A stretch of DNA of 64,000 nt from the human T2T-CHM13v2.0 reference genome, Homo sapiens: assembly GCF_009914755.1 (NCBI RefSeq), contig NC_060943.1; one strand, 5' to 3'. A program made the position numbers and the translations under genes. The stretch's first letter is position 1; each line of letters opens with the position of its first letter. Positions 53,041 to 56,000 of the stretch are shown piece by piece. The notes under the pieces are model-generated. The model did no database searches. It was given only the letters and a program-made list of their open reading frames with translations, and was not told the origin of the DNA.

Positions 53041-56000
53041 TTATGTTAGGTCATGAATTCTCTGATGTCGAGTAAGCTGTGTAAGCTGTTTAAAGGCCTT
53101 CCCACATGTCTTACATTCATAGGGTTTCTCGCCAGTGTGAACACTCTGATGTCGGCTGAGTCCTGAGGCATAGAAAAAGGCTTTCCCACATTCCGGACAT
53201 TGATAAGTTTTCTCACCAGTATGGATTCGTTTATGTTGACTAAGTTGTGAAGGACATCTAAAGGCCTTCCCACATTCCTTACAATCATAAGGTTTCTCAC
53301 CAGTGTGAGTTCGCTGATGTCGAATTAGTTCTGAGCCGCAAGTAAAAGATTTCCCACATTCTTTACATTCATAAGGTCTGTCACCGGTATGAATTCTCTG
53401 ATGTAGAGTAAGGTGTGTACGCTGTCTGAAGGACTTCCCACATGTCTTACATTCATAGGGTTTCTCGCCAGTGTGAATACTGTGATGTTTGGTGAGTCCT
53501 GAGAAACGGACAAAGGCTTTTCCACATTCATGACATCGATAAGGTTTCTCACCAGTATGGATTCGTTGATGTTGAGTAAGTTTTGAACGACGTCTAAAGG
53601 CCTTGCCACATTCCTTACAATCATAGGGTTTCTCACCAGTGTGAATTCGCCGATGTTGGATTATTGCTGAGCGAAAAGCAAAAGATTTTCCACATTCCTT
53701 ACAATGATAGGGTTTCTCACCAGTGTGAATTCGCTGATGTTCAATTAGTGTTGAGCGAGAAGTAAAAGATTTCCCACATTCTTTACAACTGTAGCGTTTC
53801 TCACCAGTGTGAACTGGCCGATGTTGAATTAGTGCTGAGCGAAGAGTAAAAGATTTCCCACATTCCTTGCAATGATAAGGTTTCTCACCAGTGTGAAGTG
53901 GCTGATGTTGAATTAGTGTTGAATGAGAAGTAAAAGATTTCCCACATTCCTTACAATCATAGAGCTTCTCACCAGTGTGTATTTGCTGATGTTGAATTAG
54001 TGTTGAGTGAGAAGTAAAAGATTTCCCACATTCCTTACAATCATAGGGTTTCTCACCAGTGTGAATTTGCTGATGTTGAATTAGTGTTGAGTGAGAAGTA
54101 AAAGATTTCCCACATTCCTTACCATCATAGGGTTTCTCATCAGTGTGATTTTGCTGATGTTGAATTAGTCCTGAGCAGAAAGTAAAAGATTTCCCACATT
54201 CTTTACATTCATAAGGTTTCTCACCAGTATGAATTCTCCGATGTTGATTAAGGTATGTACGCTGTCTAAAGGCCTTCCCACAGTCCGGACATTCATAGGG
54301 TTTCTCACCAGTGTGAATTCTGTGATGTTGGGTGAGTCCTGAGACACTGACAAAGGCTTTCCCACATTCCTGACATTGATAAGGTTTCTCACCAGTATGG
54401 ATTTGTTGATGTTGAGTAAGTCGTAAACGAAGTCTAAAGGCCTTCCCACATTCCTTACAATCATAAGGTTTCTCACCAGTGTGAATTTGCTGATGTTGAA
54501 GTAGTGTTGAGCCAACAGTAAAAGATTTTCCACATTCCTTACAGTGATAGGGTTTCTCACCAGTGTGAATTCGCTGATGTTGAATTAGTGCTGAGCGAGA
54601 AGTAAAAGATTTTCCACATTCTTTACAATCATAGGGTTTCTCACCAGTGTGAACTGCCTGATGTCCAATTAGCCCTGAGCGAAAAGTAAAAGATTTTCCA
54701 CATTCCTTACAATGATAGGGTTTCTCACCAGTGTGAATTCGCTGATGTTGAAGTAGTGCTGAGCCAGAAGCAAAAGATTTTCCACATTCTTTACAATTAT
54801 AGGGTTTCTCACCAGTGTGGATTCGCTGGTGTCGATTGCGTGTTGAGCGAAAAGTAAAAGATTTTCCACATTCCTTACAACAATAGGGTTTCTCACCAGT
54901 GTGAATCCGCTGATGTTGAAGTAGTGCTGAGCCCGAAGCAAAAGATTTCCCACACTCCTTACAATCATAGGGTTTCTCACCAGTGTGAATTCGCTGATGT
55001 TGAATTAGTGTTGAGCCAGCAGTAAAAGATTTTCCACATTCTTTACAATCATAGGGTTTCTCACCAGTGTGAATTGCCTGGTGTCCAATTAACCCTGAGC
55101 GAAAAGTAAAAGATTTCCCACATTCCTTACAATCATAGGGTTTCTCACCAGTGTGAATTCGCTGATGTCGAATTAGAGCTGAGTGAAAAGTAAAAGATTT
55201 TCCACATTCCTTACAGTCATAGGGTTTCTCACCAGTGTGAATTCGCTGATGTCGAATTAGTGCTGAGCCTGAAGCAAAAGATTTTCCACATTCCTTACAA
55301 TCATACGGTTTCTCACCAGTGTGAATTTGCTGGTGTCGAATTAGTGTTGAGCCAACAGTAAAAGATTTTCCACATTGCTTACAATGATAGGGTTTCTCAC
55401 CAGTGTGAATTTGCTGATGTTGATTTAGTGTTGAGCCAGAAGTAAAAGATTTCCCACATTCTTTACATTCATAAGGTTTGTCACCAGTATGAATTCTCCA
55501 ATGTTGAATAAGGTGTGCAGACGGTCTAAAGGCCTTCACGGATTCCTGACACTCATGAGGTCTCTCATCTGTATACATTTTCTGGTGTTGAATAAGATGT
55601 GAGCCAGAAATAAAAGCTTTTCCATATTCTTTACATGCACAGGGCTTTTCCCCAGTATGAATTCTCTGATGTTTAACAAGATAGGAAAAGTGATGAAAGG
55701 CCTTCCCACACTCCTTACATTTATAGAGTTTTTCACCAGTATGGGTTTCTTGCTGTTGTGTAAGTTCTGAGCCATACTTAAAAGCCATACATTCTGTGGA
55801 TTTATACAGTTTCTCTCCAGGATGAATCCGATGATGCAGAGTGAGAGATGTCTGTAGGCAGAAAGTTGGTGTTGTTTCATAAGTCATTATTGCTTTTTCC
55901 AAATATCGCTCCTGATTTATATCTTGGTGCTGAAACTGGCCTTTGCATTCCCAGTCATCTCTGACACTGGAGCCCACAAGGCTATGACATTTTTCCATTC

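What the first reader, a model, noticed from the sequence alone, without database searches (positions are those of the whole stretch)
53053..55821. ZNF850 array: an A-B-C-D four-finger module with minisatellite-like expansion of only the D finger
N- to C-terminal order is D' A B' C' | D x12 (54481-55488) | A B C | D x7 (53641-54228) | A B C | D | A B C. Here A is KAFR..S/L.LTQH, B is KAFV..SGLT, C is FRQRT.L and D is KSF(T/A)..S.L. The D units are near-identical 84-mers whose differences concentrate in the recognition helix (ASGSAL x3, TFRSGLIG x2, TVGSTL x2, TSHSTLIQ x3 in a row). This resembles PRDM9-type concerted evolution. It predicts copy-number alleles, fast divergence among primates and a repetitive target.
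Basis: partly seen in the sequence, partly recalled or inferred. Interest (0 to 1): 0.7.

Follow-up and report, generated by a model that had tools for sequence, protein, structure and literature searches.

The report
Old, frozen zinc-finger expansion in ZNF850
The human repressor gene ZNF850 carries a four-finger unit in three copies, with one finger further repeated 12 and 7 times, but the repeats have aged apart, so this is likely an old primate expansion that has since frozen: an ordinary route of zinc-finger evolution, not a fast-changing PRDM9-like repeat.

Summary
The anatomy is real: 32 finger slots in 84-bp register, (D12-A-B-C)(D7-A-B-C)(D-A-B-C), with supported classes. 'Near-identical' is overstated: D pairs differ at a median 11 of 84 bases, 0 of 190 identical. 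Against PRDM9 from the same genome: diversity share at binding sites 0.37-0.45 vs 0.69; private silent changes 10/222 vs 0/221 (p=0.002). D units are mosaics, so concerted evolution did happen, but private changes since then are purifying (dN/dS 0.28). Contact-residue divergence lies in the A-B-C blocks (p=0.008). An armadillo orthologue has the module without a D run. One D finger is identical in chimpanzee, orangutan and rhesus. A second human reference has the same 29 fingers, and 21 of 21 seen match. ZNF850 is already catalogued as internally duplicated; known targets are LTR12C and LTR19A, and published motifs are assigned to C-terminal units 21-31, not the D12 run. Verdict: a fossil expansion in an ordinary KRAB zinc-finger gene. 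One lead remains: D fingers prefer CTN triplets, and ZNF850 is reported to bind CTG repeats.

The parts
53041..56078 (-). Coding part of the last exon of ZNF850: spacer plus zinc-finger array, 1011 aa open frame ending in TAA
   Evidence: RefSeq table in the finding; Pfam C2H2 families only
55726..56076 (-). Unique spacer with a decayed D-like finger at its end (55809-55726); 61% identical to armadillo P0175
55474..55725 (-). Units 1-3: one intact finger and two degenerate ones; unit 3 is C-class; all three match armadillo fingers in order
54466..55473 (-). D run 1, 12 fingers (units 4-15); mean pairwise DNA difference 0.123; no motif assigned to it in the published files seen
54214..54465 (-). 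A-B-C block 1 (units 16-18)
53626..54213 (-). D run 2, 7 fingers (units 19-25); unit 20 (54129-54046) lacks its first Cys; units 20-22 are a local triplication (94/94)
53374..53625 (-). A-B-C block 2 (units 26-28); core of both published GHT-SELEX motifs
53290..53373 (-). Single D finger (unit 29), the closest to the armadillo D finger (18 of 23 residues)
53041..53289 (-). A-B-C block 3 (units 30-32) and stop; the sequence after the stop continues the armadillo C-terminal tail in another frame

Best explanation
ZNF850 is a KRAB zinc-finger repressor whose array grew from one D-A-B-C module by block duplication and by single-finger duplication of D, likely through unequal crossing-over in a primate ancestor some 25-40 million years ago, and it has likely been nearly frozen since. 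Shown: the module, its three copies, the mosaic D units, their private silent changes, and the absence of a D run in armadillo. Inferred: the D repeats began with a one-finger misalignment between D and A with the crossover in the shared CKECG segment (internal D units start like A, not like the leading D); exchange among copies then shuffled a few helix variants; homogenisation stopped, and purifying selection now keeps the fingers. The A-B-C copies diverged at contact residues, and block 2 with its flanking fingers is the part predicted to read the sites in LTR12C and LTR19A, where the KRAB domain would recruit TRIM28 for silencing. D run 1 is most likely a low-specificity accessory arm with a weak preference for pyrimidine-centred triplets.
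For: Classes and order. Armadillo P0175 was the only hit to the spacer (1 of 50 candidates). It matches the spacer (61%), units 0-3, D, A, B and C in order and the 3' tail, and has no D run; a published table also dates ZNF850 to 105 My, armadillo. Chimeric starts: 3 of 3 module-leading D units begin with a Glu codon and AAA; 0 of 17 internal D units have that Glu codon, 13 of 17 have A's AAG and 9 of 17 A's Asp; armadillo D starts YE and A starts YD. Mosaicism: 119 of 276 informative site pairs incompatible (40 of 91 without CpG sites), rising with distance (rho 0.18, p=0.019). Age: private silent changes 15/365 (0.041) in D and 4/146 (0.027) in A-B-C, not different (p=0.61), against 0/221 in PRDM9. 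Private dN/dS in D is 0.28 overall and 0.42 at contacts; A-B-C contact changes 10/82 vs silent 4/146, p=0.0075. Unit 7 identical in chimpanzee, orangutan and rhesus. 29 fingers with the same gap and 21 of 21 seen sequences identical in the reference used by PMC13541613. Motifs assigned to fingers 18-25 and 21-28 = units 21-28 and 24-31. Targets LTR12C (108 peaks vs 0.35 expected) and LTR19A (67 vs 0.01), standard repressive KRAB. KRAB-A and -B exons found upstream.
Against: Pairwise dN at -1/+3/+6 among D units is 2.5 times dS, so helix variants were favoured or retained at some time. Run 1 has the second-highest binding-site share (0.45) and the lowest DNA difference among 38 comparison arrays, though it is a hand-picked sub-array. 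Three D pairs (9, 12, 14) have no silent difference and 6 of 20 D units carry no private change, which allows later exchange. ZNF850 is listed with a shared human-chimpanzee finger loss, and the 2011 human reference had Gln, not Arg, at +6 of unit 7 (allele or assembly error). No primate orthologue sequence was obtained; the primate evidence is one finger and one list entry. The date uses a recalled neutral rate of about 1.1e-9 per site per year. The A-B-C selection test rests on 4 silent changes. The motif-to-finger assignment uses a recognition code, the archive was cut, and the protein is classed 'irregular'. Armadillo has three extra fingers between B and C, so the exact ancestral module is not fixed.
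Confidence: 0.72

Rival explanations
1. The D runs are an active PRDM9-type coding minisatellite: still homogenised, positively selected at contact residues, polymorphic in length and turning over between primate species.
For: Mosaic units; pairwise dN/dS 2.5 at -1/+3/+6; run 1 more uniform than 38 of 38 comparison arrays; repetitive targets.
Against: Binding-site share 0.37-0.45 vs 0.688; median nearest-neighbour difference 5 vs 0.5; identical pairs 0 vs 3; private silent changes 10/222 vs 0/221, p=0.002. Private dN/dS 0.28. One finger unchanged to rhesus. Same array in a second human reference.
Confidence: 0.07
2. Slow turnover: the array is old but still gains or loses a finger or block now and then, so rare length alleles exist in humans and ape arrays differ by a few D units. 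This differs from the best explanation in degree.
For: Shared human-chimpanzee finger loss; units 9, 12, 14 without silent differences and the 20-22 triplication; change in finger number is the commonest lineage-specific change among primate orthologues (PMC3126818).
Against: The listed loss may be the Cys change in unit 20 or the decayed units 2-3 rather than a deletion (inference, not tested); no human- or chimpanzee-specific change is listed.
Confidence: 0.18
3. On function (compatible with the best explanation's history): the D runs are a reader of triplet repeats. Near-equivalent fingers that each prefer CTN would bind (CTG)n in phase and account for ZNF850's reported binding to the expanded DM1 repeat.
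For: In the published matrix the triplet under unit 24 ranks CTG 1st of 64, and units 25+24 together rank a CTG repeat 2nd of 64. The five-finger site as a whole scores a CTG repeat at -6.9 of a maximum 23, so the A-B-C core does not explain CTG binding. Two reviews report that ZNF850 binds expanded CTG repeats and that knockdown stabilises them.
Against: Unit 24 is the only D finger with Glu at +6; unit 25 prefers CTC and ranks CTG 9th; unit 29 sits over GCC. No run-1 finger has a measured preference in the files seen. The primary paper was not available. Triplet-to-finger assignment is model-based.
Confidence: 0.15
4. The D runs are neutral by-products of slippage with no role in binding and are decaying.
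For: Unit 20 lost a Cys; run 2 has more non-helix changes (dN/dS 0.50); no motif seen for run 1.
Against: Private dN/dS 0.28; structural residues dN/dS 0.09; frame intact over 20 units; unit 7 protein sequence unchanged to rhesus; units 24-25 carry informative motif columns.
Confidence: 0.08

Closest known systems
KRAB C2H2 zinc-finger proteins with internal finger and array duplications (ZNF721, ZNF775; 185 and 140 human proteins in PMC13541613; ZNF676/ZNF728 in PMC8767690)
   Same: Block duplication followed by divergence of contact residues; ZNF850 is itself listed there as 'recent internal duplications: Yes; array duplications: Yes'. As in that paper's general result, duplicated blocks diverged more at contacts than singly duplicated fingers.
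   Different: ZNF850 nests long single-finger runs (12 and 7) inside the duplicated blocks; run 1 is more uniform than any of 38 comparison arrays. This anatomy is not described in the passages read.
PRDM9 zinc-finger minisatellite
   Same: 84-bp units, exchange between copies, diversity concentrated in the helix.
   Different: PRDM9: share 0.688, DNA difference 0.081, 3 identical pairs, no private silent change; ZNF850 run 1: 0.450, 0.123, 0 and 10. No SSXRD match on chromosome 19; only 79 residues lie upstream of the last exon, holding the KRAB exons.
Armadillo 'ZNF565-like' protein P0175 (orthologue by spacer, finger order and tail)
   Same: KRAB, spacer 61% identical, same four N-terminal fingers, then D, A, B and a final C.
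   Different: Ten intact fingers, one D-A-B start, three extra fingers before C, no D run and no repeated A-B-C block. Synteny not checked.

Membership tests
KRAB C2H2 zinc-finger repressor | Tandem C2H2 array with TGEKP linkers in the last exon | tested here: met
KRAB C2H2 zinc-finger repressor | KRAB-A and KRAB-B exons upstream | tested here: met
   tblastn of the armadillo KRAB finds both exons just beyond the window, at window-equivalent 67717-67580 and 67015-66923
KRAB C2H2 zinc-finger repressor | Binding to transposable elements and repressive KRAB | not testable with these tools
   Published: LTR12C, LTR19A, standard KRAB, repressor; LTR12C methylation link
C2H2 proteins with internal array duplication | [quoted passage not shown] | tested here: met
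   A-B-C x3 by distances and tree; listed as Yes in PMC13541613 Table S9
PRDM9-type coding minisatellite | Near-identical units with silent sites homogenised | tested here: not met
   10/222 private silent changes vs 0/221, p=0.002; 0 identical pairs
PRDM9-type coding minisatellite | Extreme share of amino-acid diversity at binding residues | tested here: not met
   0.373 for the first tandem array (6 of 38 arrays as high), 0.450 for run 1 alone (1 of 38), PRDM9 0.688 (published 0.687)
PRDM9-type coding minisatellite | Exchange between units | tested here: met
   four-gamete failures, rising with distance; recurrent mutation adds to the count
PRDM9-type coding minisatellite | Ongoing positive selection at contact residues | tested here: inconclusive
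   pairwise ratio 2.5 at -1/+3/+6 but private changes 0.42 at contacts; no orthologue data
PRDM9-type coding minisatellite | Length alleles in humans and species-specific arrays in primates | tested here: inconclusive
   two human references agree; one finger shared to rhesus; no pangenome or ape assembly available
PRDM9 orthologues | SSXRD and PR/SET domains | tested here: not met
   none of 20 SSXRD matches in the genome lies on chromosome 19; 79 upstream residues leave no room for SET

The most novel reading that the evidence does not exclude
The D runs of ZNF850 are a natural poly-finger reader of CTG triplet repeats: up to 12 near-equivalent fingers bind (CTG)n in phase, which is how ZNF850 reaches the expanded DM1 repeat, and alleles that differ in D number or helix residues modify somatic repeat expansion.
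Probability: 0.1. Interest if true: 0.75.

Novelty: already known. Interest (0 to 1): 0.27.

Why it matters
As it stands this is a clear example of a known process, and a useful negative: a zinc-finger array can look like PRDM9's yet be a fossil, and private silent changes tell the two apart. It also points to a division of labour, with the A-B-C blocks carrying specificity and the D runs unexplained. If the D runs prove to read CTG repeats, that would give a structural basis for ZNF850's reported role in myotonic dystrophy repeat instability and a simple deletion test.

Tried and rejected
Orthologue searches with the whole protein, residues 1-200 and the representative library were swamped by unrelated finger proteins; local BLAST of the spacer against all 309 stored proteins gave only P0175 as a close match. 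Mean pairwise dS (D 0.22 vs A-B-C 0.07) suggested that D is older than the blocks; rejected as a date because two common silent variants inflate it, and private changes show no difference. The idea that D fingers have lower predicted binding scores than A fingers was dropped: A scores 0.10-0.42, D 0.24-0.76. No paralogue holds the D run: best match elsewhere 75%. No finger-like remnants outside the two coding exons. No gradient of similarity along run 1 (p=0.91); a weak one in run 2 (p=0.02). The motif count used a pattern with one wrong column and is disregarded. The corrected pattern gave 390 exact matches vs 163 for the control; the 100 listed are dispersed, and their repeat class was not determined. 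The 'human-specific pseudogene' label (PMC2935094) does not fit this assembly, where the frame is open. Searches for a description of the module or of length alleles found none: ZNF850 (48 papers, 40 listed), ZNF850+VNTR (1), ZNF850+duplication (6).

Full report
Observation. Window 53041-56076 on the minus strand is one open frame of 1011 residues, the last exon of ZNF850. It holds 32 finger slots in an unbroken 84-bp register. By DNA distance and tree the order is units 1-3, D x12, A-B-C, D x7, A-B-C, D, A-B-C; D, A and B each form one supported group and C groups with unit 3. Two claims are too strong. D units are not near-identical: 3-18 differences of 84, median 11, 0 of 190 pairs identical. 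The N-terminal 'A' and 'B'' are not resolved.

Comparison with PRDM9. I fetched PRDM9's array from the same genome and used the statistic of PMC5519329; it gave 0.688 against the published 0.687. ZNF850's first tandem array (units 4-19) gives 0.373 and run 1 alone 0.450. For background I used 39 other human loci (38 picked by similarity to the D run, plus ZNF567 from the window); 1 had no array, leaving 38; the three self loci, ten SSXRD loci and two upstream stretches were left out. Six of 38 reach 0.373 and 1 of 38 reaches 0.450; none is as uniform in DNA as either D run, while 3 of 38 are as uniform as units 4-19. Among 174 vertebrate proteins from the homologue searches, 22 reach 0.373 and 6 reach 0.450. 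So the D runs are unusual for a KRAB gene but far from PRDM9. The sharpest difference is at silent sites: PRDM9 has 0 private silent changes in 221 sites, run 1 has 10 in 222 (p=0.002) and all D units 15 in 365 (p=0.0009).

How the array arose. The spacer search found one relative among 50 candidates, armadillo P0175. It matches the spacer at 61%, the four N-terminal fingers in order, then D (18 of 23 residues with unit 29), A (19-20 of 23), B, three unassigned fingers and C. Its tail matches the human sequence after the stop codon in another frame. It has no D run. The three D units that lead a module start with one pair of codons; none of the 17 internal D units has the first, and 13 carry the A-type second codon. 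The repeated unit therefore runs from D's helix through the linker into A's first strand, as expected from unequal crossing-over misaligned by one finger (inference). Among D units 119 of 276 informative site pairs fail the four-gamete test, 40 of 91 without CpG sites, and failure rises with distance (p=0.019); recurrent mutation adds to this count. Exchange between copies did occur.

When, and under what selection. Private silent change is 0.041 per site in D and 0.027 in A-B-C, not different (p=0.61). With a recalled neutral rate near 1.1e-9 per site per year this is roughly 25-40 My (inference; chromosome 19 may run faster). Independent evidence: unit 7 has the same protein sequence in chimpanzee, orangutan and rhesus as in this window (PMC3126818 Table S6, one row). 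ZNF850 is absent from the human-specific and chimpanzee-specific gain and loss lists and present under shared human-chimpanzee loss (Table S5, read whole). The reference used in PMC13541613 has 29 fingers with the irregular gap where unit 20 lacks its Cys, and 21 of 21 finger sequences seen equal units n+3 here (compared by eye). Private changes in D give dN/dS 0.28, and 0.42 at contacts. In A-B-C, contact changes are 10 in 82 sites against 4 silent in 146 (p=0.0075). Against this reading: pairwise dN/dS at -1/+3/+6 among D units is 2.5, six D units have no private change, and the 2011 human reference differed at +6 of unit 7.

Function. KRAB-A and -B exons lie just beyond the window. A variant numbered V259 in print is residue 180 here, so 79 residues lie upstream; no SSXRD match lies on chromosome 19. 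Published ChIP-exo targets are LTR12C and LTR19A, and motif presence tracks with methylation of LTR12C in germ cells. Two GHT-SELEX matrices are assigned to fingers 18-25 and 21-28, that is units 21-28 and 24-31 if numbering follows Table S10. Their triplets fit the contact residues by the standard code (own knowledge), but the authors' method uses such a code, so this is not independent. None is assigned to run 1 in the part of the archive held. In the first matrix unit 24 prefers CTG and unit 25 CTC, while the five-finger site scores a CTG repeat poorly. Two reviews report that ZNF850 binds the expanded CTG repeat in DM1 cells. This suggests, without showing, that the D runs read triplet repeats.

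What is known. Internal duplication is described for about a quarter of human C2H2 proteins, and ZNF850 is flagged for both kinds. I found no description of the D-A-B-C anatomy or of length alleles in nine searches; 8 of the 48 ZNF850 papers were not listed.

What I saw of each paper. Passages only: PMC8967385, PMC2935094, PMC12493176, PMC3921586, PMC12549925, PMC13438899, PMC8767690, PMC2604467, bioRxiv 2020.09.01.277178 (68; no mention of ZNF850, supplements closed), PMC1361800 (no mention). PMC5519329: passages, most of section 10, one supplement row. PMC3126818: passages, Tables S2 and S5 whole, one row of S6. PMC13541613: passages and supplement rows; files 13-31 not searched and file 8 cut, so further ZNF850 motifs may exist. 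PMC10547255: passages and supplement rows. Kamon et al. 2025 was not held and is cited only through the reviews.

Verdict. A real and tidy structure in a known gene, best read as a fossil burst of finger duplication in an ordinary KRAB repressor. Not a PRDM9-type active minisatellite on present evidence. Population and ape assemblies remain untested.

Noticed in passing
L042:699-4779 (-), G000:C19:22108000-22115000: Another human C2H2 array of 40 fingers in which many pairs differ by 0-3 of 84 bases, several being identical and repeated as blocks. It is far more recently homogenised than ZNF850 and a better candidate for length alleles. The tools gave no gene name.
   Followed up: partly
L043, G000:C19:24076500-24083000 (+): Array with the highest binding-site diversity share (0.481) of the 38 comparison arrays.
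   Followed up: no
window 53041-53000 (-): After the ZNF850 stop codon the sequence continues, in another frame, as a match to the armadillo C-terminal tail; a small indel shortened or changed the tail in one lineage.
   Followed up: partly
window 55170 region, unit 7 (55221-55138, -): The 'human-specific' contact residue reported in 2011 (Gln at +6) is not in this genome or in the reference used in 2026, both of which have the primate Arg; it is an allele or an old assembly error.
   Followed up: partly
window 33946-34319: 28-bp AT-rich tandem repeat, 13.4 copies, 98% matches, between ZNF567 and ZNF850; likely a variable-number repeat.
   Followed up: no
window 24754-25919 (+): ZNF567's 14-finger array shows a weak three-finger period (252 bp, 77% matches) with ordinary diversity values.
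   Followed up: partly
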